Positions 2,440 through 62,886 of a stretch of 64,000 nucleotides of DNA are shown one piece after another; the stretch's first letter is position 1; every line of letters begins with the position of its first letter. The position numbers and the translations under genes are program-made. The stretch is from Candidatus Gastranaerophilales bacterium (GTDB lineage: Bacteria; Cyanobacteriota; Vampirovibrionia; Gastranaerophilales; Gastranaerophilaceae). The stretch is from positions 11,903-75,902 of the forward strand of contig CALUQX010000009.1 in the NCBI GenBank assembly GCA_944323045.1, given 5' to 3'. The notes under the pieces were generated by a model. The model saw nothing but the letters and a program-made list of their open reading frames with translations, was not told the DNA's origin and did no database searches.

Positions 2440-4116
2440 ATGTGTTATAATTCAGAAATGAAAGAGATTAAAATTATTGCACCGGTCAAAAAACCTGATG
2501 ATATTCAGCTTTTCGCATCTAAAACGAATTGCCGCGACTATTACGTTTATTACAAGAAATTCCTTAATAATAATTTCGACTATGTGACGGAATTTGTATC
2601 CGCGGCAAAAAATAACAACTGTCGTATCTACATTAATTTTAAACACGATATCACAGAAGAAAATCTTGCAGAAATAAAAAAAATGCTTAAATTTCTGAAA
2701 ACAGCAGGTATTGACGGCATTTTTATAAACAGTTTTGCAATACTAGAGGCGATAAAAGTGTTTAATCTGCCTTTCAAAATAATTGTTGACAGCTATTTTG
2801 ATATACACAATATCGCAGGAATTGATTTTCTGAATAACTTTCATAAAATTGATGAAGTTATCATTACTGAAGAAATTTACATGAAGAATATTGCAAAAAT
2901 CAAAAAATACACAAAGTTGCCGCTGGCAATAGATTCCGACAATCTTCCGTGGTGTGCGGAGGATATACAAAAACTCAAAGCAATAGACAGTGTTGTAATA
3001 AAAGGAAAATTCGCGACATCCGAAGAAATTCTTGAAGGTATTGAACTTGTAGAAAAAATACTCGCTAACCCTAAAATGTTCAAAAATCAAAAACTGCCTT
3101 TTAAACACGTAAGAAAGAGCATTTATCAGACCAACCATTTTTCCGGCGAAGTTGTCAGCGCAGAAGGTAATGACTTTGAATTTAGTTGTAATATCAAGAA
3201 CTTTGACTGGGATATCAAGCCGCCGCGTATAAAGTCAGATTATGAAGGCGCCAGAAAAAATAAATACCGGATAAACTTACGCCTATCAGAACTCGCGCAT
3301 CTAAAAGAGTTAGAAAAATACATTAAAAAAGTTGGCAAATGTCCGATTTATTCTATTGAATATGGTGAAATACTTGCAACAAGTGATTTAGCGACCAGCA
3401 GTTTCAATGAAATAATAATGAAAGTCAAGAAATTTTGCGTAAAATACGGTATTGAATTTCAGTTATCAACTCCCAGAATCCTTATAGAACGTGACTTTGA
3501 CAGAGTTTATGAGTATGTAAAACAGATTATCCTCTCAGATCCTGAACCTTCATCCTTAATCATCAATAATATCGGGTATTTCTGGATGATTCTGAATGAT
3601 ACGGATATGGACGATTTGCCTTTAGAAATTGGGCAGGGAATAAATTTGTTGAACAGCCTTTCTATAAAGTGTTTAAACAGTCTTACGCCTTTAAATACAG
3701 TTGATTTCACGTCATTTAAAGATAAGGAAAGCGCTATTAAAACTATTAAGAAGATAAAAAATCTTATACCGAACCGCAAATATACAATTGCCGGAAATAT
3801 CAGAGTTCCGAGCTTAGGCTTGTGCCCGCTCAATAATGATAGCGCAATAATTTCGCGCCTGTCTTGTGCAGCACCGTGCCATAGAGGCGGATATGCATTG
3901 CATGACCCGTCACTGGATAAAGTCTATCCGTTTACCTGCGACGGTTTTTGCAGAATGCATATGTTTGAAGACCGGATACTGGCGGATTTTGATGATGTAG
4001 AAGAACTCGCCAAAGCCGGAGTTAACGAATTTGTATTTGATTTCAGCGCCCTGAACGCTAAATTTATACCCGTATTGCTTGAAAAATTTTTTAATAGAGC
4101 TGACTTAAAGGCTTGA
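2440..4116 (+). CDS. U32-peptidase-family-like protein (function uncertain)
   Basis: Long ORF with a TIM-barrel-like N-terminus (IKIIAPV...DGIFINS) and a Cys-rich C-terminal part (CAAPCHRGG...CDGFC). The true start may be M at 2458. Confidence 0.4.
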   Translation: MCYNSEMKEIKIIAPVKKPDDIQLFASKTNCRDYYVYYKKFLNNNFDYVTEFVSAAKNNNCRIYINFKHDITEENLAEIKKMLKFLKTAGIDGIFINSFAILEAIKVFNLPFKIIVDSYFDIHNIAGIDFLNNFHKIDEVIITEEIYMKNIAKIKKYTKLPLAIDSDNLPWCAEDIQKLKAIDSVVIKGKFATSEEILEGIELVEKILANPKMFKNQKLPFKHVRKSIYQTNHFSGEVVSAEGNDFEFSCNIKNFDWDIKPPRIKSDYEGARKNKYRINLRLSELAHLKELEKYIKKVGKCPIYSIEYGEILATSDLATSSFNEIIMKVKKFCVKYGIEFQLSTPRILIERDFDRVYEYVKQIILSDPEPSSLIINNIGYFWMILNDTDMDDLPLEIGQGINLLNSLSIKCLNSLTPLNTVDFTSFKDKESAIKTIKKIKNLIPNRKYTIAGNIRVPSLGLCPLNNDSAIISRLSCAAPCHRGGYALHDPSLDKVYPFTCDGFCRMHMFEDRILADFDDVEELAKAGVNEFVFDFSALNAKFIPVLLEKFFNRADLKA

Positions 4117-4405
4117 AAAAATTTGAGACATATGTAATAATGAGTATAAGAATGGCAAAAACTGAGGAATTTGGATGACAGAGTTGTTGGCAGACCGAAA
4201 AGAACAAAATGTAGTTTTGGGTTTCCACCCCGACAATTTCCGTAGGGTGGGCAAAGCAGAGCGTGCCCACCGCAATGTTGGTAACTCCCAGCAAACGGAA
4301 CTTACTCCACTCACAATCCTCACCCCCTTCACTTTTGGTGCGTGCAAACATGAGCCTTTTGCATCTTGCAAAGTGGCTGAAACCCGCATGAATACTGAGT
4401 TTTGC

Positions 4406-4416
4406 GGGGGGGGGGG
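4406..4416 (+). repeat. homopolymeric G11 tract
   Basis: Counted directly: GC-GGGGGGGGGGG-TGCC. The homologous site upstream of paralog B has G10. Confidence 0.95.
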
Positions 4417-4480
4417 TGCCAAACTCTAAGCCCCACAAGGCTTTCCGGCACATTGCAAAATCGTGTCATAGTCAAAACCC

Positions 4481-4536
4481 GTCATCCCGCAACAGGATTG
4501 CGGCAATACACAGAGATTGTGACCTTGCGGGATCTC
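4481..4536 (+). repeat. polar stem-loop element (GTCAT-stem-loop-stem-ATCTC), copy 1 of a perfect direct repeat
   Basis: GTCATCCCGCAACAGGATTGCGGCAATACACAGAGATTGTGACCTTGCGGGATCTC. CCCGCAA can pair with either of two TTGCGG(G) segments. Confidence 0.85.
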
Positions 4537-5036
4537 AAACAAAAATTTACAGTAGACCGTATTTCCCAATCCGCCAGCACCACCACAAGCCAAAAACTTG
4601 TGAATAAATCAATAGTCCTATTAAAACCTACTTAATAAATAGAATTTATGCTAAATTAGCATTATGACAAAGAAAAAACATAAGGATAAAGAATTATGCC
4701 AAAAGATGAAGAATTAAACCAACAATTGAAGAACCACAAAATTCCTCTCCAAGGGGGAGGAAAAGAATTTGTTAGCGAATGTAATGAGCTTACAAATTCA
4801 GGAGGGGGTCAGACCAGTCCGCATTTATACACTGAGTGGTTGCTAAAGAAGTCCAATCACCCAAATTCGACCCAAAACAACTTGTTTCAGGGTCTAGCCA
4901 ACGTGACAGAGGTCGATGAGTTGAATACCCAAACAGTCGTCGCATTAGTGACCCCTCACCAAGAAAGGCTAGCCTCATTACATTCGTCAAGCCTTTCTAT
5001 CCTCTCCCGCAAGGGGCGAGGAGAACGTCATCCCGC

Positions 5037-5092
5037 AACAGGATTGCGGCAATACACAGAGATTGTGACCTTGCGGGATCTCAAAAGAAAAG
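5037..5092 (+). repeat. polar stem-loop element, copy 2 (identical to 4481-4536)
   Basis: About 60 nt identical to the copy 556 bp upstream, extending one base 5' and three bases 3' of the element. Confidence 0.85.
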
Positions 5093-5118
5093 TAGTAACA
5101 AAAAAGGAGAATAAAACA

Positions 5119-6246
5119 ATGAAACTAAACAACAACAAAGCAGTGGCTCAGACCAATTCCAGAAACGGACTTAACGTCCTAACGTCTTATCGTCTTAACG
5201 TCTTTGGAAGACGCTCCGCGTTTACCCTCGCCGAAGTCCTCATCACCCTTGCGATAATCGGCGTAGTGGCGGCGATAACGATACCAAGCCTTGTTAAGAA
5301 CTACAATGAGCATGCATGGTTAACCGCACAGGATGTGTTCACCAAAAGACTTGAAGTCGCAACCCGCCAAATGAACACCGAGGAAAAACTTGCGGGTTAC
5401 AGTTCGACAATGGATTTTGTAAACGAATTAAAGAAGAAAATCAAAATAACCAACGTATGCGATAGCAACAATTTGAGTAAATGCTTTGAAAGCACAATCT
5501 TAACAGCAGACGGTCAGGAAATAGATGCTACTAATTTAAAGACATCCGCCAAACTTGCCAAAGAGGATTGGGGAACGGAAACAGTTGGCGTGCAGTTTGC
5601 AAATGGAATAAATGCATTAATAGCATATAATCCGCAGACAGACCAACAACCGTTCAATAATCAGTTTAGTGCGACTGAGGCAAGCATGGCAATATTGTAT
5701 GACGTATCCGGACACAAAAATCCGAATACCTTAGGTAAAGACGTGAATCAGAACGCGAATGTTAAAAAATTAGGCTGTTATATTAAGCCGGATTTAGTAG
5801 GCGGTATGTGCATAAGCCAGATACTCGTCCCAGGAACAGGCTATAGCCCTATGACGAAAGCAGAATGCGACCAAGCAGTATCCGACGGAGAATTAGGGGT
5901 AAAGGCTTGCCAATATAATGATGATTATTGGGCAGGAGCAGTGAAAGCATGTGGAGGAATAAACAACATGCCAACAGAATCGCAATTAATAGACCTAGCT
6001 AAGTACGTATATAATACAGACAGTATAAACGGCGGAACAAGTACAACACATGCAACCTTAGACACAGAAAAAGCCTCTCAATTCCTCTCAGCATCCCCAT
6101 ATTCTAATTCGTTCTATGTTTGGTCTGGGCAGGAGAGCAGCAGCCTCGGCGCGTACTACCGCGACTTTCGCTATACCTACACGCTCTGGTACGACAGCAG
6201 CGCCCGCGACAGCAGCATCATACTCGCGGTTTGTCTTGACCAGTAA
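5119..6246 (+). CDS. prepilin-type N-terminal methylation-domain protein with lectin-like hypervariable C-terminus (paralog A)
   Basis: AAAAAGGAGA RBS before ATG 5119. AFTLAEVLITLAIIGVVAAITIPSL class-III signal/hydrophobic helix with E at +5. C-terminal YWAGAVKACGG..MPT..QL..LAKYVY...FYVWSG...AVCLDQ resembles the DUF1566/C-type-lectin-like layout. The ORF is open in frame back to 4696 (see findings). Confidence 0.85.
   Translation: MKLNNNKAVAQTNSRNGLNVLTSYRLNVFGRRSAFTLAEVLITLAIIGVVAAITIPSLVKNYNEHAWLTAQDVFTKRLEVATRQMNTEEKLAGYSSTMDFVNELKKKIKITNVCDSNNLSKCFESTILTADGQEIDATNLKTSAKLAKEDWGTETVGVQFANGINALIAYNPQTDQQPFNNQFSATEASMAILYDVSGHKNPNTLGKDVNQNANVKKLGCYIKPDLVGGMCISQILVPGTGYSPMTKAECDQAVSDGELGVKACQYNDDYWAGAVKACGGINNMPTESQLIDLAKYVYNTDSINGGTSTTHATLDTEKASQFLSASPYSNSFYVWSGQESSSLGAYYRDFRYTYTLWYDSSARDSSIILAVCLDQ
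6121..6243 (+). other. candidate DGR variable region (VR-A)
   Basis: GC-rich island in an AT-rich gene. By hand count, 24 of 30 codons in 6136-6225 end in C. Identical flanks in paralog B, with internal differences mostly at codon positions 1-2. Confidence 0.55.
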
Positions 6247-6261
6247 GAGGCGGAGCCTCTT
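6245..6261 (+). other. stop-codon-overlapping hairpin AAGAGGC-GGA-GCCTCTT (IMH/cruciform-like boundary)
   Basis: Perfect 7-bp stem. Identical copies sit at the 3' ends of paralogs B (24975-24991) and C (48389-48405, minus strand). Confidence 0.8.
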
Positions 6262-6780
6262 AATGGCGTGACTAGGTGATTAAGTGATTAGGTGATTAAG
6301 AGGATTTCAAAATGAGGCAATGCAAGAATCAAGCGTTGCCTTATTTTTATTAACTACTTAGTGCCTCAGTGCCTCAGTGCCTTAGTAACTTAGTAACTTT
6401 CAAGAGAGATCCCGCAAGGCGTCGAATCTAGCGTGACGCGTAAATGCCGCTGCGGGATGACATGGGGCGTTGGCTGCTCAATGTAACAACTGTTCACAGA
6501 TTACTGTTCACTGAGAACCGGTTCGTCGAAATGACAGCACCCTACGACTACGTTCATATTATTTGACCCCTCACCAAGTATTGACATTGCCTGTACTTCT
6601 TTAGCGGGCACCCAAAGTGTAAAAGCGGACTTGTCCGCCCCGCAAGGGGCGAGGAAAATTCAGCGTTGCCTGATTCATGTAACCCGCTTAATCACTTAAT
6701 CACCCAGTCACTTAATCACTTTTGTAACAACCGTTCACCGGTCTTGGTTAAAGCTTAACAAAATCAGGTACTCTGTTTTT
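6262..6780. repeat. mosaic interspersed-repeat region downstream of paralog A
   Basis: Concatenated modules: GTGATTAA 8-mers, a terminator-like hairpin, TAGTGCCT 8-mers, a polar stem-loop (6406-6463), GTTCAC 7-mers, the AGAACCGGTTCGTCGAAATGACAGCACCCTACGAC module (6514-6548) and a 93-nt module (6646-6738). Confidence 0.85.
6646..6738 (+). repeat. 93-nt conserved module (GGGGCGAGGAAAATTCAGCGTTGCCTGATTCATGTAACCCGCTTAATCAC...TTTTGTAACAACCGTTCAC)
   Basis: Identical by eye to 25315-25407. Partial reverse-complement copies at 41084-41159 and 33868-33919. Confidence 0.85.
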
Positions 6781-6887
6781 TGCCACCTGCATGGTTAGAT
6801 ATTGTTCTTTTAATATTTACGCTCACATCACTCTAGCCAAAATCCGTAACTCGCAAATAGCAATTTCTCGCTCTATCTTCTTGCTAA

Positions 6888-6919
6888 TAAAAAAGAGCCA
6901 CTTATGTGACTCTTTTTTA
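6888..6919 (-). terminator. bidirectional Rho-independent terminator downstream of tRNA-Gly
   Basis: AAAAAAGAGCCAC-TTAT-GTGACTCTTTTTT: a hairpin flanked by an A-run and a T-run. Confidence 0.7.
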
Positions 6920-6921
6920 TT

Positions 6922-6993
6922 AGCGGGAGACGAGGCTCGAACTCGCGACATCCTCCTTGGCAAGGAGGCATTCTACCACTGAATTACCCCCGC
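6922..6993 (-). tRNA. tRNA-Gly (anticodon GCC)
   Basis: Reverse complement GCGGGGGTAATTCAGTGGTAGAATGCCTCCTTGCCAAGGAGGATGTCGCGAGTTCGAGCCTCGTCTCCCGCT folds as a cloverleaf. Anticodon loop is TTGCCAA; T-loop is GTTCGAGCC. CCA is not encoded. Confidence 0.9.
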
Positions 6994-7142
6994 GTATTTC
7001 AGGTTACTTTCTTATATTACATGCTAAAAAATAAAATGCAATACCTTTTTGTTAATTTATATATGTTCACAACTTACTACCATCTCAAAATCACAAAATA
7101 ATCCTAAATATCAACAAAATTGCCTCATTCATTCAAGATAAA

Positions 7143-14935: not shown

Positions 14936-16036
14936 CTATCCTTGTGCAGCAAAAGTTCCGTGGTAAACGCCGCGCAGCGCCTGCTGTAATTCATTTTTAT
15001 TATCTGAAAATTCTAAAGCAGTTTCCGGTGTTATGTATCCGGCTTTGCAAAGCTGGTACAAAGAAGTGTTCATTGTAATCATTTTGTTGAATGAACCTTT
15101 TTTAACCAGATCATAAATCTCTTCTAATTCATCTTTTACAATAAAATCTTTTACAGTAGAAGTGCACACAAGAATTTCACATGCCGGACGTCTGCCAGTA
15201 CCGTCTTGAGTAGGTACGAGTTTTTGAGAGACAGTACCGCGTAATATTTGTGCTAGCTGTTCTCTTACAAATTGTCTGTCTCCCGGGTCGAACATATTTA
15301 CAATACGGTTAACTGTTTGTACAGCATCATTAGTGTGGATTGTTGCGTATACGAGGTGACCGGTTTCAGCAGCTTTGAGGGCGCTGATAATTGTTTCTTT
15401 ATCTCTTATTTCGCCGATAAATATAACATCAGGATCCTGACGCAATGCGTATTTTACCCCGTCAGGGAAAGACGGAGTATCAAGTAGAATCTGTCTTTGA
15501 GAGACAATACTCATATTGTTGGTAAAGATAAATTCAACCGGATCTTCTATTGTAATAATATGTTTTGCATAGTGATTGTTAATATAGTCAATCAAAGATG
15601 CGATAGTTGTAGATTTTCCGCTGCCTGTCGGACCTGTAATAAGTACAAGACCGTTATTTAGCATCGAAAACTGACTCATAGCAGCAGGAAGATTTAATTC
15701 TTTAATATCTTTGATTTTATAAGGAATAACACGAATAGCAAGCGCTCTGTGGTTCAACTGTCTGCTTGTGTTTACCCTGAAACGTGAACAGCCCGGTATT
15801 TCAAAAGAAAAGTCGAGGTCAAGATATTGTTCATAATTAGATTTTAAATGTTTTGGAACAAGCGTTTCCAAACTTCTATTAAGGTCATCATCGGTCAGTG
15901 TCGGCATTTCAGTAAATTTAAAAATTTCACCGTCTTTTCTCATGCACGGGTATTCTTCTACATACAGGTGTGCGTCCGATGCACCTATCGCAACAATGTT
16001 CCTTAAAAATTCTATTATATCAAAATCTTTCATCAT
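14936..16036 (-). CDS. pilT: type IV pilus twitching-motility ATPase PilT
   Basis: Walker A GPTGSGKST, Asp box, Walker B (DPDVIFIGEIRD), His box and the PilT signature AxxTGHLVxxTxHT. Start set at MMKDF (GGGAGA RBS) rather than the ORF-track start 16069. Confidence 0.9.
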   Translation of the reverse strand: MMKDFDIIEFLRNIVAIGASDAHLYVEEYPCMRKDGEIFKFTEMPTLTDDDLNRSLETLVPKHLKSNYEQYLDLDFSFEIPGCSRFRVNTSRQLNHRALAIRVIPYKIKDIKELNLPAAMSQFSMLNNGLVLITGPTGSGKSTTIASLIDYINNHYAKHIITIEDPVEFIFTNNMSIVSQRQILLDTPSFPDGVKYALRQDPDVIFIGEIRDKETIISALKAAETGHLVYATIHTNDAVQTVNRIVNMFDPGDRQFVREQLAQILRGTVSQKLVPTQDGTGRRPACEILVCTSTVKDFIVKDELEEIYDLVKKGSFNKMITMNTSLYQLCKAGYITPETALEFSDNKNELQQALRGVYHGTFAAQG

Positions 16037-16336
16037 ACTTCTCCCATAATACAGAATTATAACATCCAAATTATGCTTGGCAAAAATGCAAAGTTATGTA
16101 AAGCGGTAGGGTAATAACAAATTTATTTGTAACAAAAGTTTAACAAAAGACATAACACTGGCAATTTTTATCCGCCGAAATACTTTATTAAAATGTAAGG
16201 GAAATTTAAGATTAATAAAAAGGATTTTAATTGGATATTTAGAATAATCAAATAATTCTTCACGATGTAAGAAAAAAGATTATAAGAAAAGTTTATTTTT
16301 ATACTCTCTCTCTTAATATCCTCGTGTTTATTTAAT

Positions 16337-22956: not shown

Positions 22957-23270
22957 AATCCACCACCTTTGTATATTATATTACCATAATCTGAATACAC
23001 AGGAGCAGGATTAATGAAAATTAACATAGAGGACTTGCAAAATTTAGCAACATATGTCATAATGAAAATGTGAACAAAAACCGAGGAGTTCAATGACAGG
23101 AAGTATGATGGAACGATTAGAAGAAAATAAATTCTTAATCACTCAATCACCTAATCACTTAATCACTTTAAAAAATGTATGTTTGGGGTTCCACCCAAGC
23201 AATATCCTCACCCCACTTACTTTTGCGCCATGCGATAGGGCTGAAACCCTTGCTATGACTGCATTTGCGC

Positions 23271-23280
23271 GGGGGGGGGG
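23271..23280 (+). repeat. homopolymeric G10 tract
   Basis: Counted directly. Same flanks as the G11 tract at 4406-4416. Confidence 0.95.
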
Positions 23281-23376
23281 TGCCAAACTCTAAGCCCCAC
23301 AAGGCTTTCCGGGCACACGAAGTGTGCTCTTACATATGGAAACCTGCTAAAGAAGTGCAGCCCCTGCCACATTCAT

Positions 23377-23403
23377 GTCATTCTGAACTTGTTTCAGAAT
23401 CTC
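23377..23403 (+). repeat. polar stem-loop element (short variant)
   Basis: GTCAT-TCTGAA-CTTGT-TTCAGA-ATCTC. Same flanks as the CCCGCAA elements but a different stem. Confidence 0.6.
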
Positions 23404-23836
23404 CTCATCGGTCAGTCAGTAGACCGTATTTCCCAATCCGCCAGAACCAACACAAGCCGAAAGCTTGTGCATAAGTCAATAGTCCTATTAAAGCCTACTT
23501 AATAAATAGAATTTGTGATAAATTAGTATTATAACAAAGAAAACATAAGGATAAAGAATTATGCTAAATGATGAAGAATCAAATCAACAATTGAAGAACC
23601 ACAAAATTCCTCTCCGTGGGGGAGGAAGAAATTTGTTGCCGAACGGAGAGAGGCTAGAAATTTCAGGAGGGGGTCGGACCAGACCACATATAGTCCCCCC
23701 ACCCGAACCACTAAACTCACGAAAGTTCGTTAAGTGGTTCCGCCCTCCCCTCAGGAGAGGGCACCAAGCCAACCACGAGGAAACAATCAGTAATACACAA
23801 TCAGAAGATAGAAACAACAGAAAGGAGCAACTCCAA

Positions 23837-24976
23837 ATGAAAACCAAAAACAAAATCAACGAATCAACCGCTCAGACCAATTCCAGAAACAACGGTACTC
23901 ACCATACTCACTTCACTCACTTAGTCACGTCCCCAAAAGCCGCGTTTACCCTCGCCGAAGTCCTAATCACCCTCGCAATCATCGGCGTAGTAGCGGCGAT
24001 AACGATACCGAGCTTAGTCAAGAATTACAATGAAAAGGCATGGGAAAGTGGACAAAAAGTTTTTGAAAACAGATTACTTGTAGCTACACGTCAGATGAAC
24101 ACAGAGGAAAAATTGGCAGGTTATTCTTCAACCATGGACTTTGTGAATGAGTTGAAAAAATATATTAAAATAACCCGTGTCTGCGATAATGACAACATTA
24201 CCAAATGCTTTAATAAAGAAGTAATCTGGAGTGCTGATGAAGAGCCGGTAGACATGTCAAAAGTAACAGATGCATCAGCTTTTGGTCTGGATTGGGAGAC
24301 TGATACGGTAGCAGTTCAGTTTGCGAACGGTGTAAATGCAGTAATTGCTTACAATCCGAATGCAACACAAGACCCATATAATAACCAGTTTGCGGCGACC
24401 TCAAAATCCATGGCAATATTGTATGATTTGTCAGGAAACAAGAATCCGAATACAAATGGTAAGGATATAAAAAATATAAATGTAGACCAGTTAGCCGGTG
24501 TAGAAGGCTGTTTGATACCTGAGTTAAAAGATACAATGTGCATAACGAAAATTATATCTCCGGAAGAATACGGATATTTATCATATTCAGAATGTACCGA
24601 GGCTAAGAATAACGGCGAAATAGACGTAGATGCATGTTATAATGGCTCAAGTCCAGATTATTTTGCGGGCGCAGTAAAAGCATGTGGAGGTAAGAAAGCA
24701 AACTTACCAAGCCAAGACCAGCTAACGCAGCTAGCAAAATATGTATATGGAACAGACAGTATAAACTCCAGCGGTTATACATATGACCTAGCTTTAGACA
24801 CAACCAAAGCCTCCCAATTCCGCTCAGCAAGAGGTACTGATTACTTCTATGTTTGGTCTGGGCAGGAGTATAGCCGCGACCGCGCGTACTTCCGCTTCTT
24901 CTACTCTACCGGCACGAACGGGAACGACTGCAACCGCCACTACAGCTACGCTCTTGCGGTTTGTCTAGACCAGTAA
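23837..24976 (+). CDS. prepilin-type N-terminal methylation-domain protein with lectin-like hypervariable C-terminus (paralog B)
   Basis: AAAGGAG RBS before ATG 23837. AFTLAEVLITLAIIGVVAAITIPSL. Central 79 aa identical to paralog C. C-terminal FYVWSGQE...AVCLDQ. The ORF is open in frame back to 23561. Confidence 0.85.
   Translation: MKTKNKINESTAQTNSRNNGTHHTHFTHLVTSPKAAFTLAEVLITLAIIGVVAAITIPSLVKNYNEKAWESGQKVFENRLLVATRQMNTEEKLAGYSSTMDFVNELKKYIKITRVCDNDNITKCFNKEVIWSADEEPVDMSKVTDASAFGLDWETDTVAVQFANGVNAVIAYNPNATQDPYNNQFAATSKSMAILYDLSGNKNPNTNGKDIKNINVDQLAGVEGCLIPELKDTMCITKIISPEEYGYLSYSECTEAKNNGEIDVDACYNGSSPDYFAGAVKACGGKKANLPSQDQLTQLAKYVYGTDSINSSGYTYDLALDTTKASQFRSARGTDYFYVWSGQEYSRDRAYFRFFYSTGTNGNDCNRHYSYALAVCLDQ
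24853..24973 (+). other. candidate DGR variable region (VR-B)
   Basis: By hand count, 22 of 29 codons in 24869-24955 end in C. Flanks identical to VR-A. Confidence 0.55.
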
Positions 24977-24991
24977 GAGGCGGAGCCTCTT
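24975..24991 (+). other. stop-codon-overlapping hairpin AAGAGGC-GGA-GCCTCTT
   Basis: Identical to 6245-6261. Confidence 0.8.
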
Positions 24992-25540
24992 AATGGAGGC
25001 ACTAAGTTACTAAGGCACTAAGGCACTAAGGATTAAATTGAAATAAGGTAATGTGAAACGCGCACATTGCCTTATTTTTTGTAAAGAACTTGTTCCCTTA
25101 ACAACAAGCAATGTGGAAAATTCCACGTTGTCTGTTGTTGTAACTACTTAGTGCCCTAGCCCCCTAGTGCCTTAGTAACTTCTGTTTCTGAGATCGCGCA
25201 ACTGCTTGGTTGCTCGCAATAAACGGGTCTACGGGCTGCTCCGCCGGCTCCACGCCGCCGTGTGCGCCCTGCGCCCTCTGCTCGCAATCCGCAAGTGCGC
25301 GATGACATGGTATAGGGGCGAGGAAAATTCAGCGTTGCCTGATTCATGTAACCCGCTTAATCACTTAATCACCCAGTCACTTAATCACTTTTGTAACAAC
25401 CGTTCACTGTTCACCGTTCACAATTCACAGAGAACCGGTGCGTCGAAACGACAGCACCCTACGAATAACTTCTTTAGCCGCCACCCAGAGTATAAGAGTA
25501 GGCTACGCCTACCTGCGCCTACCCACTTGTAAATGTTTTG
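24992..25540. repeat. mosaic interspersed-repeat region downstream of paralog B
   Basis: Same module set as 6262-6780 in a different order. It also holds a polar stem-loop (25190-25310) whose loop is a very GC-rich ~100-nt insert. Confidence 0.85.
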
Positions 25541-25594
25541 TGTTTAGTTTATTATTATTTTGCAGAATTTTACTTTAAAAAAAGGAGAGTTATT

Positions 25595-26389
25595 ATGTCA
25601 AGAAAACCAATTATCGCAGGAAACTGGAAAATGAACCTGCTTAGAGCTGATGCCGAAGCTTTATTTGAAGGCATTAAATCATTTGTTAAAGATTACAGTG
25701 CACAGGATTTGCCTACTGTAATCATCGCACCTACTTTCACTTCATTATCTGCTGTTCATGCAGAAAAATGTGACTGCGGATGCGGCGGCAACAGAATTAA
25801 TATCGCTGCTCAAAACTGCCACTGGGAATCTTCTGGTGCTTACACAGGTGAAGTTTCTGTTGAAATGGTTAAAGATGCAGGTTGTTCTTATGTTATCATC
25901 GGTCACTCTGAAAGAAGACAGTATTTCTCTGAAACTGATGAAATGATTAACAAAAAAGCAAAAGCTATTTTGGCTGGCGGTTTAATCCCTATCATCTGCT
26001 GCGGTGAAACTCTGGAACAACGTGAATCAGGTGTAACTGATCAACACATTGCTTCTCAAATCCGCGCTGCATTGTCTGGAATTTCCGCTGAAGATGTTGC
26101 AAAATCTGTAATCGCTTATGAACCAATCTGGGCTATCGGCACAGGCAAAACTTGTGACAGCGATGAGGCTAACCGCGTTATTGCAATGATTAGAAGTGTT
26201 GTTAAAGATGTTGCAGGGGCTGACGCTGCTGATTCTATCAGAATCCTTTACGGCGGCTCTGTTAAACCTTCTACAATCGCTGAACAAATGTCTAAATCTG
26301 ACATTGACGGCGCTTTAGTAGGCGGTGCTTCTCTTAAAGCTGACAGCTTTAACGAAATTATTGCAAACACTATGAAAGTAGCAGTATAA
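25595..26389 (+). CDS. tpiA: triose-phosphate isomerase
   Basis: IAGNWKMN, IIGHSERR, AYEPIWAIGTG, YGGSV motifs. AAAGGAGAG RBS before ATG 25595; the ORF-track start 25538 is rejected. Confidence 0.92.
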   Translation: MSRKPIIAGNWKMNLLRADAEALFEGIKSFVKDYSAQDLPTVIIAPTFTSLSAVHAEKCDCGCGGNRINIAAQNCHWESSGAYTGEVSVEMVKDAGCSYVIIGHSERRQYFSETDEMINKKAKAILAGGLIPIICCGETLEQRESGVTDQHIASQIRAALSGISAEDVAKSVIAYEPIWAIGTGKTCDSDEANRVIAMIRSVVKDVAGADAADSIRILYGGSVKPSTIAEQMSKSDIDGALVGGASLKADSFNEIIANTMKVAV

Positions 26390-26401
26390 ATAAATTCGGT
26401 G

Positions 26402-26433
26402 AACAGTGAACAGTTTACTGTTCACTGTTTTTT
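26402..26433 (+). terminator. Rho-independent terminator built from GTGAACA/TGTTCAC repeat units
   Basis: AACAGTGAACAG-TTTA-CTGTTCACTGTT: a 12-bp stem followed by TTTT. Confidence 0.75.
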
Positions 26434-26802: not shown

Positions 26803-26908
26803 TTAAGACGTTAGGAAGTTAAATAAAACAGTCTTAGTTAAATTTTGTAAAATATATATTTATTGAAATGCACTTAACGTCTTAGCGTCTTAACGTCCCA
26901 ACGTCTTT
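26803..26908. repeat. inverted CTTAACGT-type 8-mer units flanking an AT-rich spacer (MITE-like)
   Basis: Left arm TTAAGACGTTAGG is the reverse complement of units in the right arm CTTAACGTCTTAGCGTCTTAACGTCCCAACGTCTTT. Confidence 0.6.
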
Positions 26909-33770: not shown

Positions 33771-33950
33771 GAGTGAGTAAGGTGAGTGAAGTGAGTATTG
33801 TGAGTAAAGAACTGTAGTCGTAGGGTGCCGTCGTTTCGACGCACCGGTACTCAGTGACCAGTGAATGGTGAACGGTTGTTACAAAAGTGATTAGGCGACT
33901 GGGTGATTAAGTGATTAAGAGGGTTTGAAGTGGACCCCTAAAAGTGGACC
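33771..33950. repeat. mosaic repeat fragment abutting the IS3 remnant
   Basis: GTGAGTNNN 9-mers (33771-33809), the GTCGTAGGGTGCCGTCGTTTCGACGCACCGGT module (33817-33848), GTGAAC units and the GTGATTAAG module. Confidence 0.8.
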
Positions 33951-33951
33951 T

Positions 33952-34650
33952 CTAAGCAGCGAGTAATTTCAGTGCGAACTGCTTAGGCGACAATTTGTTT
34001 TTATTCCACTGCGGTCTGTTATTGTAATCATACATGTATTTGTCCACAACGGCAACAACATCTTCAAAAGTTTTACAATTGTTAAATTCAACATAATCCT
34101 TCATATGCCCGAAAAAACTTTCTACAACAGCATTGTCCAATGGCGTTCCAGGACGTGACATAGAATGTATCTTCTGGTATTTAATCATTAAGTCATTAAA
34201 TGCTTTGCTTGTATATTGACAGCCTCTATCTGTATGCAACATCTTTATTCCTCGTTCCTTCCCTAATAATCGCTCTGTTGAATTTAGGATAAATTCCTTA
34301 CTTTGTTTTGAGGATAAAGCATATTCAAGAACTTCTCCTGTTTTGACATCTATATACACATTTAAATAACATTTATTGTTTTGGTAATAAATATACGTAA
34401 CATCTCCACAGACCACAGTCCTTACTCGCTGTGATTTAAAGTCGCGGTTTAATATATTTTCTTTAATGTATTGCTCTTCTCATAAACATTGATTAATTTT
34501 TTGTTTTTTACGTATTTGACATATTAAATTTTCTTTTTTCATTATTCGTTGCACCTTTTTTCTATTAATAGTAAGCCCATAAAGTTTTAAAGCAATGAGT
34601 TTAATTTGTCGTGACCCTTTTTTATTACAAAACAAAATAAAGGCAAGGTT
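33952..34650 (-). pseudogene. IS3-family transposase (OrfB/rve integrase) remnant, 5'-truncated with an in-frame TGA
   Basis: DDE/rve motifs (CGDVTYI, HTDRGCQYTS, SRPGTPLDNAVVESFF). The upstream frame continues (KKGSRQIKLIALKLYGLTINRKKVQRIMKKENL) but is interrupted by an in-frame TGA at 34480-34482. No OrfA and no terminal inverted repeats were seen. Confidence 0.75.
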
Positions 34651-40981: not shown

Positions 40982-41970
40982 CGTAGTTTGGGGACAATTG
41001 AAAAATAATAGCGGGCACCGATTCGGAGACCCGTGAGCAGTCGTAGGGAGCCGTCGTTTCGACGAACAGGTTCGCTGTGAATTGTGAACGGTTGTTACAA
41101 AAGTGATTAAGTGACTGGGTGATTAAGTGATTAAGCGGGTTACTTGAATCAGGCAACGCCACCATGTCATCGCGCAGCGGCATAGTCGCAATTCTAGCAA
41201 GTCGTAGATAATGCGCGATCTCTACCAATAACGTCATCCCGCAAGCGGCATTTACGCGTCACGCAAGAATCGTCGCCTTGCGGGATCTCTTATGGAGGTC
41301 GTTAAGTTACTAAGGCACTGAGGCACTAAGTAGTTAATAAAATCAGGTAATGTGGAATGCAGCATTGCTTGTGTTTTTCATGTCCTCCCCTGGAGGGAGG
41401 ACCGGAATTTTTAATTCCGAGGAGGGGGACGCGAACGTAGTGAGCGTTTAATAACTAGAACACTGTCAAGTGCAACATGGGCTAGATGCTGAAACAGTCT
41501 TGGTTGCTCGCGTGTGTCTTACTCGTTCGCGTTTAGCAGGTCTTCGGTTGACGCCAGCAATGGCAGAGCCATTTTGCCGTCAAGCCTCCGCCTTCCGCTC
41601 TCTCGCGCAACGGCGTTCCGGACTTTCTTTTCAGCGGCTTTGCCGCCTCCAAAGAAAGCTCCTACAGCCTCTGCTCGCAATCCGCAGTTCAGCATGACAA
41701 AAAATAAATAAGGCAACGCTTGAATCTTGCTTTGCCTTATTTTGAAATCCTCTTAATCACCTAATCACTCAGTCACCTAATCACTTTAAAACAGAGATCG
41801 CGCAACCCGTGCGCGATGACATGAAAACATCCGACAACATGGGATATCCACATTGCCTGATTAATTGTAAATACTTTACTCACATTACTCACCCCACTCA
41901 CTTTAGTCACTCTTTTTGAGATCACGCAAGTCATCAAGTCTTGTGCGCTCCGTCCTTCGATTCAATATAC
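40982..41970. repeat. orphan ~1-kb non-coding mosaic repeat region
   Basis: Module set of the paralog A/B downstream regions in inverted orientation. Includes two tandem polar stem-loops (41166-41222, 41233-41289), a third at 41794-41823 and a GC-rich island at 41470-41700. Only repeat-derived ORFs are present. Confidence 0.8.
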
Positions 41971-48009: not shown

Positions 48010-48388
48010 GAAAAGTGAAGAGAGTGAGTGATGTGAGTAAGGTGAGTGTAGTGAGTAAAGTGTTTACAAGTCGTAGGGTGCCGTCGTTTCGACGAACCGA
48101 TTTTCTGTGAACAGTGACCTGTGACCAGTGAACGGTTGTTTTGGAAAAGACGTTAGGACGATAAGACGTGTCTTGGATTTGCCCCACGCTCGGAAAGTTT
48201 CGCTTTTGAACCTGCGGTTCAACTCCGCTCAATTTCCTCGCTATCCGGATTTGTGCCTTCGGCACTCCATCCGTGCGCAAATCCGCTAAGTCCGTTAAGA
48301 AGAAACAGGCAATGTGGAAAAGCCTACGTTGTCTGTTGTTGTAACTACTTAGCCCCTTAGTGCCTTAGTAACTTAGTGCCTTTCCATT
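48010..48388. repeat. mosaic interspersed-repeat region downstream of paralog C
   Basis: GTGAGTNNN 9-mers (48015-48060), the GTCGTAGGGTGCCGTCGTTTCGACGAACCG module (48070-48099), GTGAAC/GTGACC units, ACGTTAGG units and TTAGTGCC units. Confidence 0.8.
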
Positions 48389-48405
48389 AAGAGGCTCCGC
48401 CTCTT
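48389..48405 (-). other. stop-codon-overlapping hairpin (same as at paralogs A and B)
   Basis: AAGAGGCTCCGCCTCTT on the plus strand, which is the reverse complement of AAGAGGCGGAGCCTCTT. Confidence 0.8.
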
Positions 48406-49516
48406 AATGGTCAAGACAAACCGCGAAGAATTTTTTGTTACGGTTGTCGTAGCGCGGACCTGTGCTGGTATAGCCGAAGTGTCTAGCGTCCTCTGCGGTA
48501 GATGACCAAACATAGAACCGTTCAGAATATGATGTTAAAGCTGAGAGGAATTGGTCTGCTTTTTCTGTATCTAATGTTATGCCTGATACACTCTTATGGG
48601 CGTCTATTGTGAATTTCAAATTATATAAATATGTCGCTAGTTCGCCTAGATGTGTCATTGTTGGCATGTTGTTTATTCCTCCGCATGCCGCCACTGCCCC
48701 TGCCCAATAATCATAGTCAGACGTACATTTGTTTATACCTAAGTCTTCCTTTTGTTCTTCACATAGAGCTTTACTTAATGGGCTATACAGTGAGAGTATT
48801 TGAGTTATGCAAAATCCTACTTCGTCTTCTGGCAGCAAGCAGCCTGTTACGCCTGCTAGTTGGGTTACATTTGCGTTATGGGCAATGTCTTTGCCGTTGG
48901 TATTCGGATTTTTGTTGCCGGAGACATCGTAAAGTATCGCCATGCTGTTACTTGTGGCGTTGAACTGGTTATTATACGGGTCTTGGGTCGCATTCGGATT
49001 GTAGGCAATTACTGCATTTACGCCATTCGCAAATTGCACTGCCACCGTATCAGTCTCCCAATCCAGACCAAAAGCTGATGCATCTGTTACTTTTGACATG
49101 TCTACTGGTTCCTCATCAGCACTCCAAATAACTTCTTTATTAAAGCATTTTGTAATATTGTCATTATCGCAGACTCTTGTGATTTTAATATATTTTTTCA
49201 ACTCATTCACAAAGTCCATGGTTGAATTGTAACCGGCTAGTTTTTCCTCTGTGTTCATTTGTCTTGTGGCTACCTCAAGGCGTTTTTCAAAGACATCTTT
49301 TGCGGTTAACCATGCATGCTCATTGTAATTTTTCACTAGGCTTGGTATCGTTATCGCTGCCACCACGCCGATGATTGCGAGGGTGATTAAGACCTCTGCC
49401 AAAGTAAACGCGGCTTTTGGGGAAGTGATTAAGTGAGTGAAGTGAGTACGGTGAGTACCGTTGTTTCTGGAATGGGTCTGAGCCATGGCTTCGTTGATTT
49501 TGTTGTTAGTTTTCAT
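48404..49516 (-). CDS. prepilin-type N-terminal methylation-domain protein with lectin-like C-terminus (paralog C)
   Basis: Start chosen by homology to paralog B (…CAACTCCAAATGAAAAC); the ORF track extends to 49564. AFTLAEVLITLAIIGVVAAITIPSL. C-terminal FYVWSS...AVCLDH. Confidence 0.85.
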   Translation of the reverse strand: MKTNNKINEAMAQTHSRNNGTHRTHFTHLITSPKAAFTLAEVLITLAIIGVVAAITIPSLVKNYNEHAWLTAKDVFEKRLEVATRQMNTEEKLAGYNSTMDFVNELKKYIKITRVCDNDNITKCFNKEVIWSADEEPVDMSKVTDASAFGLDWETDTVAVQFANGVNAVIAYNPNATQDPYNNQFNATSNSMAILYDVSGNKNPNTNGKDIAHNANVTQLAGVTGCLLPEDEVGFCITQILSLYSPLSKALCEEQKEDLGINKCTSDYDYWAGAVAACGGINNMPTMTHLGELATYLYNLKFTIDAHKSVSGITLDTEKADQFLSALTSYSERFYVWSSTAEDARHFGYTSTGPRYDNRNKKFFAVCLDH

Positions 49517-62872: not shown

Positions 62873-62886
62873 TGAGGTGAAAAACT

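What the first reader, a model, noticed from the sequence alone, without database searches (positions are those of the whole stretch)
6262..6780. Mosaic interspersed elements assembled from a small vocabulary of 7-, 8- and 9-mer tandem units and longer modules
The non-coding DNA after paralog A is a concatenation of recognisable modules that recur across the window in varying order and orientation. The modules are: (GTGATTAA/CTTAATCA)n 8-mers, (TTAGTGCC/TTAGTAAC)n 8-mers, (GTTCACN)n 7-mers, (GTGAGTNNN)n 9-mers, (CTTAACGT)n 8-mers, terminator-like hairpins AAGGCAA(C/T)G...TTGCCTTATTTTT, a ~35-nt module AGAACCGGT(T/G)CGTCGAAA(T/C)GACAGCACCCTACGA (five copies: 6514, 25431, 33817rc, 41040rc, 48070rc), an ACTTCTTTAGCNGNCACCCARAG module, and a 93-nt module identical at 6646-6738 and 25315-25407. 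The organisation resembles BIME/REP mosaics of enterobacteria and the heptameric STRR repeats of heterocystous cyanobacteria. The units themselves are not ones I recognise. They cluster at the 3' ends of prepilin-type genes.
Basis: seen in the sequence. Interest (0 to 1): 0.65.

Follow-up and report, generated by a model that had tools for sequence, protein, structure and literature searches.

The report
Mosaic of hairpins and four-unit repeats
The DNA after this pilin-like gene is a real patchwork of small hairpin repeats and short tandem arrays of 7, 8 or 9 bases. It resembles repeat mosaics already known in E. coli and cyanobacteria. What is unusual is that the arrays follow a strict orientation rule and are even translated inside the signal peptides of a huge, variable pilin-like gene family.

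Summary
Window 6262-6780 is a concatenation of modules that recur at about ten other sites. There are 25 arrays of period 7-9, against about 1.4 in shuffles. Three independent metagenome assemblies give the same sequence, so it is not an artefact.

The modules are:
- Arrays of about four units: (CYYANNNN)4CTT, usually 35 nt, plus 7- and 9-base versions.
- Terminator-like hairpins flanked by outward-facing arrays.
- A GTAG-tagged palindrome of REP type (the 35-nt module).
- Palindromes whose loops hold further insertions.
- A 104-110-nt element with inverted ends, inserted inside arrays.

Mosaics occupy 5 of 6 flanks of the three 375-aa prepilin genes and 2 of 34 other intergenic regions. The same arrays are read in frame inside prepilin leader peptides. 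Unit number and array type differ between near-identical strains.

Throughout the window the G-rich strand follows stop codons and the C-rich strand precedes or enters genes.

I read it as a BIME/REP- and STRR-like mosaic. It was probably built by nested insertion, gene conversion and slippage, and it supplies terminators and recombination boundaries for variable prepilin cassettes. The spreading mechanism is inferred. No transposase was found. It is a new variant of a known kind.

The parts
6244..6262 (+). Stop codon of prepilin A inside an 8-bp hairpin, TAAGAGGC-GGA-GCCTCTTA. The same 23-nt motif ends prepilin genes B (24974) and C (48384, minus strand).
6266..6300 (-). Octamer array of the CTTAATCA type. 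The G-rich strand (GTGATTAA) lies in the prepilin A transcript, directly after the stop codon. It is complementary to 6687-6721.
6314..6351 (+). H1 hairpin: GAGGCAATGC, 9-nt loop, GCGTTGCCTT, then ATTTTTATT. It looks like the intrinsic terminator of prepilin A. It belongs to the AGGCAAYG...CRTTGCCT hairpin family, which is usually flanked by outward-facing arrays.
   Evidence: direct reading; fold; flanks of arrays. The consensus terminator scan missed it because the loop exceeds 8 nt.
6357..6399 (+). Octamer array, C-rich strand: CTTAGTGC CTCAGTGC CTCAGTGC CTTAGTAA CTTAGTAA CTT (5 units). It is preceded by ATTAACTA.
6406..6465 (+). Palindrome E: GAGATCCCGCA, about 38-nt loop, TGCGGGATGACATGG. 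Minimal copies with a 5-nt loop exist at 41786-41818 and at L001 18636. Copies with 30-100-nt loops lie at 4480-4539, 5026-5085, 25190-25310 and 41233-41289.
6483..6513 (+). GTAACAAC followed by a heptamer-type array: CTGTTCA CAGATTA CTGTTCA CTGAGAA.
6514..6547 (-). The 35-nt module. It is a GTAG-tagged imperfect palindrome (minus strand: TCGTAG GGTGCTGTCA TTT CGACGAACC), REP-like. In all 5 window copies a (GTGAAYN)n heptamer array follows; in the L001 copy at 9843 an octamer array follows instead.
6595..6617 (+). ACTTCTTTAGCGGGCACCCAAAG module. A second copy lies at 25468. Reverse-complement GCTAAAGAAGT cores lie at 4838 and 23338.
6645..6738 (+). 94-nt module, 100% identical to 25314-25407 and 98.7% identical over 76 nt to 41084-41159. 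It holds a hairpin arm, the 6687-6721 array, the linker TTTTGTAACAAC and the first heptamer unit.
6687..6721 (+). Octamer array CTTAATCA CTTAATCA CCCAGTCA CTTAATCA CTT. It is the inverted partner of 6266-6300, so the finding region is bounded by inverted 35-nt arrays.
5170..5204 (+). (CTTAACGT)4CTT array inside the coding sequence of the prepilin A leader peptide. It is translated as GLNVLTSYRLNVF. The gene starts at 5119 with RBS AAGGAG.
24996..25181 (+). 3' flank of prepilin B: G-rich array, two hairpins, then a complementary C-rich array. Together they fold into one long stem-loop.
   Evidence: -96.3 kcal/mol, z = -11.5
25356..25464 (+). Upstream of tpiA: octamer array, linker, heptamer array (25399-25428) and the 35-nt module (25431-25464). 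The right-hand boundary of the strain-variable prepilin B cassette lies at 25428.
33772..33925 (+). After the HTH gene: 9-mer array, 35-nt module, 7-mer array, octamer array. Synteny with the related strain L001 ends at 33869.
41041..41914 (.). Largest mosaic, lying between the convergent GH38 and M20 genes with no prepilin gene present. It contains the 35-nt module, arrays of all three periods, H1 hairpins, E palindromes and a segment (41370-41420) that is translated in the leader peptides of other paralogs.
48022..48403 (.). 3' flank of prepilin C and 5' region of gltD: 9-mer array, 35-nt module, 7-mer array, and an octamer array interrupted by a 110-nt element with inverted ends (48175-48284, GGATTTGC...GCAAATCC), then an H1 hairpin and another octamer array.
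26399..26430 (+). (GTGAACA)2 ... (TGTTCAC)2 inverted heptamer arrays followed by a T-run. This looks like the terminator of tpiA and is built from array units.
26873..26907 (+). (CTTAACGT)4CTT array ending 19 nt upstream of the yceD start codon.

Best explanation
Window 6262-6780 is non-coding filler of the BIME/REP type combined with STRR-type tandem arrays.

**Components.** It is a compound of at least five families of small, non-autonomous repeats:
- Four-unit tandem arrays, (CYYANNNN)4CTT, with 7-mer (CNNTTCA) and 9-mer (CNNYACTCA) versions.
- H1 hairpins that double as intrinsic terminators and carry outward-facing arrays on both sides.
- A GTAG-tagged REP-like palindrome.
- The E palindrome.
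- A short element with inverted ends.

**How it was built.** The mosaic grew by repeated insertion of these pieces into each other, into hairpin loops and between array units. It is kept homogeneous by gene conversion between dispersed copies, and the arrays themselves gain and lose units.

**Which steps are shown.** The module inventory, the nesting, unit-number and array-type polymorphism between strains, perfect identity of modules next to diverged genes, the orientation rule, and in-frame translation in leader peptides.

**Which steps are inferred.**
- The elements spread by a DNA-level copy mechanism, with the enzyme unknown.
- Selection tolerates only those orientations and unit variants that do not disturb gene expression.
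- The cell uses the mosaics as terminators or insulators, and as homology patches at which prepilin cassettes are exchanged, lost or gained.
For: 1. **Vocabulary and excess over chance.**
2. **Array length.** Arrays are 35 nt in 24 cases, 27 nt in 7 and 43 nt in 3.
3. **Nesting.** The E palindrome occurs with a 5-nt loop (41786-41818; L001 18636) and with 30-100-nt loops. An octamer array is split by a 104-110-nt element with inverted ends at 48175-48284 and at L001 18315-18418, while intact arrays lie at 5170 and 26873. The same element also sits inside an E palindrome in L036 and L037.
4. **Recent copying.** A 94-nt module is 100% identical at 6645 and 25314, while the adjacent prepilin genes are about 66% identical.
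5. **Instability between strains.** Four strains are identical over 330 nt of mosaic, yet one array has 1, 4, 4 or 5 units (alignment A1). At the orthologous site after the HTH gene, the window and L001 (97% identical) differ in unit number and array type.
6. **Boundaries of variable DNA.**
   - The 2.4-kb prepilin B cassette (23027-25428) is replaced by other genes in L001, and the right junction falls at the 35-nt module.
   - Synteny ends at 33869, inside a mosaic.
   - Short-read contigs break inside the mosaics.
7. **Terminator role.** H1 is a stable hairpin followed by a T-run directly after prepilin A. Arrays pair around the hairpins (z = -11.5, z = -5).
8. **Tolerance filter.** Modules are read in frame in the leader peptides of many paralogs. 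Variant units there (CCCAGTCA, CTTATCGT, CTCAGTGC) remove the stop codons that a pure array would create (and direct reading).
9. **Composition.** Mosaics are 42-48% G+C, against 15-33% (one outlier at 40%) for ordinary intergenic DNA.
Against: - No transposase that could move the pieces was seen: no Y1/RAYT and no intact IS in the window or in the gene lists of about 200 kb of related loci.
- No clean target-site duplication could be defined for the element with inverted ends.
- The seven copies of the 35-nt module vary without compensatory changes.
- The strict orientation rule and the narrow four-unit length are more than a purely selfish model predicts. They could mean that the arrays have a function of their own at the RNA level.
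- The prepilin paralogs are homologous, so their flanks are not independent observations.
- The whole genome was not available. The 35-nt module was absent from the 185,579-species genome collection.
Confidence: 0.5

Rival explanations
1. The arrays are RNA-level regulatory elements. C-rich copies in 5' UTRs, upstream ORFs and leader codons are targets. G-rich copies placed between a stop codon and an intrinsic terminator are released as 3'-UTR-derived antisense RNAs, or fold back in cis. By pairing with complementary arrays they would set which of the many prepilin paralogs is translated.
For: - The orientation rule has no exception in the window. The G-rich strand lies in the transcript right after the stop codons of A, B, C, the HTH gene (33772), M20 (41873), tpiA (26399) and GH38 (41043-41135). 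The C-rich strand lies in 5' regions and leaders (5170, 23134, 25356, 26873, and 48023-48131 for gltD).
- A seed followed by a terminator hairpin is the usual anatomy of 3'-UTR small RNAs (established knowledge).
- Complementary arrays do pair in predicted folds.
- In L026, L030 and L033, the 3' antisense arrays match the gene's own 5' arrays.
Against: - Self-complementarity is seen in only 3 of 6 loci, about what five array types would give by chance.
- Any inverted arrangement around a bidirectional terminator gives the same orientation seen from both sides. Selection against SD-like and GTG-rich sequence upstream of start codons would also produce the rule without any function.
- There is no expression data and no Rfam match.
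Confidence: 0.15
2. The arrays are contingency-locus microsatellites. Slipped-strand gain or loss of one 8-nt unit in the leader-peptide array shifts the reading frame and switches individual prepilin genes on and off. The intergenic copies are by-products.
For: - Unit number differs between near-identical strains: 1/4/4/5 units, and 3 against 4 and 3 against 5.
- Octamer arrays lie inside the coding leaders of several paralogs, where a change of one unit cannot keep the frame.
- The same loci carry a 9-14-G tract at the end of an upstream ORF, a classic phase-variation device.
Against: - Arrays are short (4 units) and imperfect (70-94% matches), which makes slippage slow.
- Every leader array seen is the in-frame 35-nt form, and no frameshifted allele was found.
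- Most arrays are non-coding, where length has no obvious effect.
- 9-mer arrays cannot shift the frame.
Confidence: 0.15
3. The modules are not mobile at all. They are remnants of prepilin gene flanks and leaders, carried along by segmental duplication of the gene family and then eroded.
For: - Five of seven mosaics flank family members.
- The stop-codon hairpin plus antisense array is conserved at the ends of A, B and C.
- Part of the gene-free mosaic at 41370-41420 is translated in leaders of other paralogs.
Against: - A module is 100% identical where the adjacent genes are about 66% identical.
- The order and orientation of modules differ at every locus.
- Arrays and hairpins also occur at tpiA, yceD, GH38/M20 and after HTH genes.
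- Array type is swapped between otherwise identical leaders, for example in P0042, P0075, P0095 and P0044.
Confidence: 0.1
4. Assembly artefact: collapsed or chimeric repeats.
For: Short-read contigs often end inside the mosaics.
Against: - Three assemblies from different samples give identical, gap-free sequence across 6262-6780.
- Two assemblies agree across 25201-25600.
- The same architecture appears in more distant relatives.
Confidence: 0.02

Closest known systems
REP elements and BIMEs of enterobacteria and pseudomonads (GTAG-tagged REP superfamily)
   Same: - The 35-nt module is an extragenic, GC-rich imperfect palindrome with an unpaired GTAG at one end.
- It occurs in both orientations and mostly downstream of genes.
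- The region as a whole is a mosaic of conserved modules, like a BIME.
- REPs are also thought to act as terminators or RNA stabilisers (PMC3733652).
   Different: - Copies are solitary rather than in inverted pairs.
- In all five window copies it is fused to a heptamer array.
- No RAYT gene was seen.
- BIMEs contain no tandem 7-9-mers.
- The host is a low-GC uncultured gut bacterium, not a proteobacterium.
STRR (short tandemly repeated repetitive) sequences of filamentous cyanobacteria, and the small dispersed repeats that insert into them (Mazel et al. 1990 and Elhai et al. 2008, both recalled from memory)
   Same: - Short tandem arrays of several unit types lie side by side in intergenic DNA.
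- They can form hairpins, and their function is unknown (PMC2670836).
- Small elements are found inserted within arrays.
   Different: - Units here are 7, 8 and 9 nt with other sequences.
- Arrays are held near four units.
- They obey a transcription-related orientation rule.
- They are translated in leader peptides.
- The taxon is not established. Gene content (flagella, secretin, type IV pilus genes, ycf45-like ATPase) is compatible with non-photosynthetic gut relatives of cyanobacteria, but this was not tested.
Rickettsia palindromic elements (RPE)
   Same: Small palindromic repeats that are inserted in frame into protein-coding genes and translated (knowledge from memory: Ogata et al. 2000).
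   Different: Here the insertions are confined to the cleaved leader peptide and an upstream ORF. They are mostly tandem arrays rather than one 100-150-nt palindrome.
Neisseria pilE/pilS loci with Correia elements, RS repeats and the upstream G4 element
   Same: A variable pilin gene family is embedded in small repeats, with a G-run upstream and signs of cassette exchange. One paralog without RBS and start codon (L036) looks like a silent copy.
   Different: - No evidence of a single expression locus.
- The G-run is a homopolymer at the end of an upstream ORF, not a G-quadruplex motif.
- The repeats are unrelated in sequence.
Simple-sequence contingency loci (Haemophilus, Neisseria, Campylobacter)
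   Same: Repeat tracts inside 5' coding regions whose unit length is not a multiple of three, copy-number differences between strains, and a poly-G tract.
   Different: Units of 8 nt, only about four imperfect copies, and no out-of-frame allele observed.

Membership tests
GTAG-tagged REP superfamily | Imperfect palindrome of 20-40 bp | tested here: met
   GGTGCCGTCG-TTT-CGACGCACC: a 9-bp stem with one bulge inside a 34-nt conserved unit.
GTAG-tagged REP superfamily | Unpaired GTAG tetranucleotide at one end | tested here: met
   All 7 copies read (T)CGTAG immediately 5' of the stem. Definition from PMC3733652.
GTAG-tagged REP superfamily | Many extragenic copies per genome | tested here: inconclusive
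   There are 5 copies in 64 kb, all intergenic, and 2 more in L001. The genome was not available, and the module is absent from the species-representative genome collection and from the more distant relatives L026-L038.
GTAG-tagged REP superfamily | RAYT (Y1 transposase) gene in the same genome | not testable with these tools
   No Y1_Tnp hit among the genes of the window or of about 200 kb of related loci. The rest of the genome is unseen.
BIME | REPs in alternating orientation separated by conserved linker motifs | tested here: not met
   Conserved linkers exist (for example TTTTGTAACAAC between the octamer and heptamer arrays). But the REP-like module is single in each mosaic, and the partners are tandem arrays and other hairpins.
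STRR | Tandem repeats of about 7 bp, several unit types, in intergenic DNA | tested here: met
   There are 25 arrays of period 7, 8 or 9. The octamer is the commonest unit, not the heptamer.
STRR | Host is a filamentous or heterocystous cyanobacterium | not testable with these tools
   The source is an uncultured MAG lineage (GCA_949291475.1 is 97% identical), and no taxonomy was returned by any tool. No photosynthesis genes lie in the window.
MITE | Terminal inverted repeats, no coding capacity, size about 100-600 bp | tested here: met
   GGATTTGC...GCAAATCC, 104-110 nt, at 48175-48284, L001 18315-18418, L036 and L037.
MITE | Target-site duplication and a related autonomous IS | tested here: inconclusive
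   The junctions fall inside array units, so a duplication cannot be told apart from the repeat itself. The only IS trace is a truncated IS3-type integrase at 33952-34416, with unrelated ends.
Contingency-locus microsatellite | Copy number varies between closely related strains | tested here: met
   1/4/4/5 units in alignment A1. 3 against 4 and 3 against 5 units.
Contingency-locus microsatellite | Out-of-frame (off) alleles of the same gene exist | tested here: inconclusive
   All leader arrays seen are 35 nt and in frame. P0077/L036 lacks RBS and ATG because of a deletion, not a unit change. Read-level data were not available.
Known RNA families (Rfam 15) | Match to a curated covariance model | tested here: not met
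   Only tRNA-Gly matches in 4000-7000 at E <= 1, and in the whole window at gathering score.

The most novel reading that the evidence does not exclude
The four-unit arrays would be a functional RNA code rather than tolerated filler. C-rich arrays in front of or just inside genes, and complementary G-rich arrays in 3' UTRs ahead of terminators, would form an antisense network that coordinates expression of dozens of prepilin paralogs. C-rich octamer arrays abutting start codons would be a more general translation-initiation-region device.

In unrelated metagenome contigs, arrays of the same unit lie 0-25 nt upstream of the true start codons of housekeeping genes. This holds in 18 of 59 cases in the C-rich orientation, against 3 in the other orientation.

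One caution applies. A scrambled control octamer is just as frequent as the real unit in the viral collection. The wide occurrence by itself therefore says nothing about function.
Probability: 0.12. Interest if true: 0.8.

Novelty: new variant of a known kind. Interest (0 to 1): 0.55.

Why it matters
If the reading is right, an uncultured gut bacterium packages a very large, fast-evolving family of pilin-like surface proteins between blocks of small repeats. These blocks terminate transcription, mark the edges of strain-variable cassettes, and change between near-identical strains. More than 4,200 relatives of the protein were found in public data.

This gives a concrete, sequence-defined system for studying how REP-, MITE- and STRR-type repeats spread, and how they drive surface variation. 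Three features are not part of the textbook picture of such repeats and can be tested directly with metatranscriptomes and read-level population data:
- the strict orientation rule;
- the near-fixed four-unit length;
- the in-frame use of arrays in cleaved leader peptides.

There is also a practical point. These mosaics break short-read assemblies, so the gene family will be under-represented in MAGs.

Tried and rejected
- **Genome-wide census.** A scan of 185,579 species genomes with the 35-nt module gave one chance hit, inside a planctomycete PAS-domain gene. The lineage is not in that collection, so copy number and RAYT presence could not be settled.
- **Taxonomy.** Cluster look-ups, NCBIfam and literature searches for the accession and sample names returned nothing. 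The Gastranaerophilales idea rests only on gene content.
- **The long ORFs 4696-6246 and 23561-24976.** I rejected them as real genes. The prepilin genes start at 5119 and 23837 with good ribosome-binding sites. The homologous upstream frame carries a stop in L001 and L036. The 'ORF' also contains a repeated 60-nt palindrome.
- **Inverted leader and 3' arrays as an invertible-gene switch.** The array types match in only some loci and no inverted allele was seen, so I dropped this.
- **Resemblance of AATCACCT units to the 3' end of 16S rRNA.** Only one unit variant fits and the other array types do not, so I did not pursue it.
- **Wide occurrence of (CYYAATCA)n as evidence of a conserved element.** There are at least 120 metagenome contigs of 17-70% G+C. 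In the viral collection, however, the real unit gave 8 hits, scrambled controls gave 8 and 2, CYYAACGT gave 0 and CYYAGTGC gave 7. I therefore rejected this argument.
- **Literature on the octamer units.** A search for them as words found nothing relevant. Elhai 2008 could not be read.
- **Terminator scan.** The consensus scan did not flag H1 because its loop is 9 nt.
Full report

Yes.
- Tandem Repeats Finder reports octamer arrays at 6268-6300, 6360-6399 and 6687-6721. It reports the other units elsewhere in the window.
- A self-comparison finds the same modules at 23134-23169, 24956-25464, 33773-33925, 41039-41342, 41706-41914 and 48022-48430. This includes a 94-nt stretch that is 100% identical at 6645-6738 and 25314-25407.
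- The 35-nt module has exactly the five copies listed.
- The window holds 25 arrays of period 7-9. Thirty second-order Markov shuffles give a mean of 1.4.
- Contigs from three different samples and assemblers are 99.94-100% identical and gap-free across the region. Two assemblies agree across the tpiA-proximal mosaic. It is therefore not a collapsed-repeat artefact. Many short-read contigs do end inside mosaics.

**2. Anatomy of the arrays**

Read in one orientation, every octamer array fits (CYYANNNN)n followed by CTT.
- In the window and five related loci, 24 arrays are 35 nt (four units), 7 are 27 nt and 3 are 43 nt.
- The variable half of the unit comes in a few types: ATCA, ACGT, GTGC/GTAA, GCCC and TTCC. 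Types can be mixed within one array.
- Nine-base arrays, (CNNYACTCA)4, and seven-base arrays, (CNNTTCA)3-4, look like spaced variants of the ATCA type.
- Arrays are usually preceded by (T)GTAA(C) or ATTAA plus 2-4 nt. In intergenic DNA that motif follows the 3' arm of a hairpin of the family AGGCAAYG-loop-CRTTGCCT plus a T-run.
- The typical unit is therefore array(reverse) - hairpin - array(forward).

**3. Layout of the finding region**
- The stop codon of prepilin A sits in a small hairpin (6244-6262).
- Next comes a reverse array (6266-6300), then the H1 hairpin and T-run (6314-6351), then a forward array (6357-6399).
- An E palindrome follows (6406-6465), then a heptamer-type array and the 35-nt module (6483-6547).
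- The 94-nt module follows at 6645-6738, after the ACTTCTTTAGC module (6595-6617). Its array (6687-6721) is the inverted partner of 6266-6300.
- Predicted folding pairs these two arrays (z = -5).
- At prepilin B, the reverse and forward arrays close a 185-nt stem-loop around two hairpins (-96.3 kcal/mol, z = -11.5).

**4. The longer modules**
- On its other strand, the 35-nt module reads TCGTAG-GGTGCCGTCG-TTT-CGACGCACC. That is a GC-rich imperfect palindrome with an unpaired GTAG tag, which is the defining look of the GTAG REP superfamily (PMC3733652). In all five window copies a heptamer array follows it.
- The E palindrome (GAGATCSCGCA...TGCGSGATGACATGG) exists with a 5-nt loop (41786-41818; L001 18636) and with loops of 30-100 nt (6406-6465, 4480-4539, 25190-25310). 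This indicates insertions into the loop.
- A 104-110-nt element with inverted ends (GGATTTGC...GCAAATCC) splits an octamer array at 48175-48284 and at L001 18315-18418. It also sits inside an E palindrome in L036 and L037.
- No Rfam family matches.

**5. Surroundings**
- Prepilin A really starts at 5119, after AAGGAG. Its N-methylation motif lies at residues 172-195 of the longer ORF.
- Its (CTTAACGT)4 array at 5170-5204 is inside the leader-peptide coding sequence.
- Genes B, C and D carry 9-mer arrays in the same place.
- A homology search found more than 4,200 relatives, all unnamed proteins from metagenomes and MAGs.
- Their leaders are mosaics of translated modules: GTHRTHFTHLVT (9-mers), GLNVLTSYRLNVF (ACGT type), LVPQCLSALVTS (GTGC type) and NHLITQSLSHLITS (ATCA type). 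The non-coding window segment 41370-41420 also appears there (LSCPPLEGGPEFLIPRRG), as does the element with inverted ends.
- Leaders that are otherwise identical carry different array types (P0042, P0075, P0095, P0044).
- Within coding arrays, the variant units are exactly those that remove the stop codon a pure array would create in that frame (direct reading).

**6. Distribution in the window**
- Of 40 intergenic regions of at least 30 nt, seven are mosaics.
- Mosaics are 42-48% G+C, against 15-33% for the rest apart from one region at 40%.
- Five of the six flanks of the three 375-aa prepilin genes are mosaics, against two of 34 other regions (Fisher p = 1.8e-4).
- Four other pilin-like genes have no mosaic at their 3' ends.
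- Small array-only sites flank tpiA and yceD.

**7. Orientation rule**

I found no exception in the window.
- Immediately after a stop codon the transcript carries the G-rich strand of the array. This holds for A, B, C, the HTH gene at 33772, M20 at 41873, tpiA at 26399 and GH38 at 41043-41135.
- In 5' UTRs, upstream ORFs and leaders the transcript carries the C-rich strand: 5170, 23134, 25356, 26873, and 48023-48131 for gltD.
- The automated classification is noisier because of spurious ORFs.
- The prepilin loci of more distant relatives follow the same rule.

**8. Strain comparisons**
- L001 (GCA_949291475.1) is about 97% identical to the window.
- The whole prepilin B cassette (23027-25428) is replaced there by five other genes. 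That replacement ends with its own mosaic, and the sequences rejoin at the 35-nt module.
- After the HTH gene, synteny ends at 33869, inside a mosaic. L001 continues into a prepilin cassette, whereas the window has a truncated IS3-type integrase.
- At that orthologous site the arrays differ in unit number and type.
- Four strains of a more distant relative are identical over 330 nt of mosaic, except for one array that has 1, 4, 4 or 5 units.

**9. Interpretation**

The shown facts are nesting, perfect copies next to diverged genes, unstable arrays and cassette boundaries. They fit a BIME/REP-like and STRR-like mosaic of non-autonomous repeats that spread by insertion and gene conversion. In this reading the H1 hairpins serve as terminators, and selection permits only harmless orientations and unit variants.

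The enzyme is unknown. No RAYT or intact transposase appears in the window or in about 200 kb of related loci.

The orientation rule and the four-unit length leave room for two rivals:
- an RNA-level function (an antisense or UTR code);
- a phase-variation role for the coding arrays.

**10. Beyond this lineage**
The G+C of the 80 loci analysed ranges from 17% to 70%. Most of those loci carry further arrays of period 6-10.
- In 18 of 59 loci, an ATG-initiated ORF starts 0-25 nt after the array in the C-rich orientation. The figure is 3 in the other orientation and 7% at random positions.
- Ten of ten tested ORFs are real genes (ilvC, hisF, hemL-type, ychF, ptsI, rpsS and others) whose domains begin in the first 5-40 residues, five of them at residue 3-5.
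- In the viral collection, however, scrambled control octamers are as frequent as the real unit. The wide occurrence does not by itself show a conserved element. The orientation bias may simply reflect what is tolerated upstream of a start codon.

**11. Verdict**

This is a new variant of known repeat mosaics, of moderate interest. What raises it above the ordinary is:
- the orientation rule;
- the fixed array length;
- translation of arrays in leader peptides;
- the link to a very large variable prepilin family.

Noticed in passing
window 4175-4429 and 23093-23293 (poly-G at 4406-4416 and 23271-23280); also L001 19034, L026 9790, L030 67, L033 9739: Each 375-aa prepilin gene examined that has a mosaic 5' region is preceded by a promoter-like site (TTGAAA-17-AATAAT at 4113; TTGCAA-17-CATAAT at 23026) and a conserved upstream ORF. 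That ORF ends 1-4 codons after a run of 9-14 G. In every assembled allele, adding or removing one G would extend translation by 40-70 codons into the long 5' UTR. This looks like a phase-variable switch.
   Followed up: partly
window 5119-5235, 23837-23945, 49516-49400 (minus), 33288-33190 (minus); proteins P0001-P0120: Leader peptides of the prepilin family are 25-90 residues long and are mosaics of translated repeat modules. Paralogs with the same flanks carry different array types.
   Followed up: yes
window 23027-25428 versus L001 7145-9834: The whole prepilin B cassette (promoter, upstream ORF, gene and 3' mosaic) is replaced in a 97%-identical strain by five unrelated small genes, ending with an HTH gene and another mosaic.
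   Followed up: partly
window 33928-34416: A truncated IS3-family integrase (154 aa, rve domain) with a 14-nt tandem repeat at its end abuts a mosaic. The related strain L001 has a complete prepilin cassette at this position, which suggests an IS-linked deletion.
   Followed up: partly
L036 1500-1700: A prepilin paralog with the full 5' UTR but without ribosome-binding site and start codon. The sequence runs from the E palindrome straight into '...AQTHSRNY' and the array. It may be a silent copy or a pseudogene.
   Followed up: no
window 4696-6246 and 23561-24976: These long ORFs (516 and 471 aa) are open-frame artefacts that run through the 5' UTR into the prepilin genes. Gene callers in public data have deposited the 516-aa version (P0001).
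   Followed up: yes
L039-L118 (metagenome contigs): Octamer arrays of the AATCAC type lie directly upstream of the start codons of housekeeping genes in contigs of very different G+C, often with no Shine-Dalgarno sequence in between. One lies between ribosomal protein genes, upstream of rpsS (L101).
   Followed up: partly
window 62066-63918 and 14936-16069; L030 5205-10323: The window also encodes a prepilin peptidase (A24 family) next to a sigma-70-type factor, and a PilT/T2SSE-type ATPase next to recO. Relatives encode a secretin, MshE-type ATPase and platform protein, so the machinery for processing the prepilin family is present.
   Followed up: no
window 53784-55129: Two adjacent thymidylate-kinase-family genes share a 38-nt stretch (53833-53870 and 54507-54544, 95% identical).
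   Followed up: no
window 4480-4539 and 5026-5085: A 60-nt E-type palindrome is duplicated with 100% identity 546 nt apart within the 5' UTR of prepilin A.
   Followed up: no
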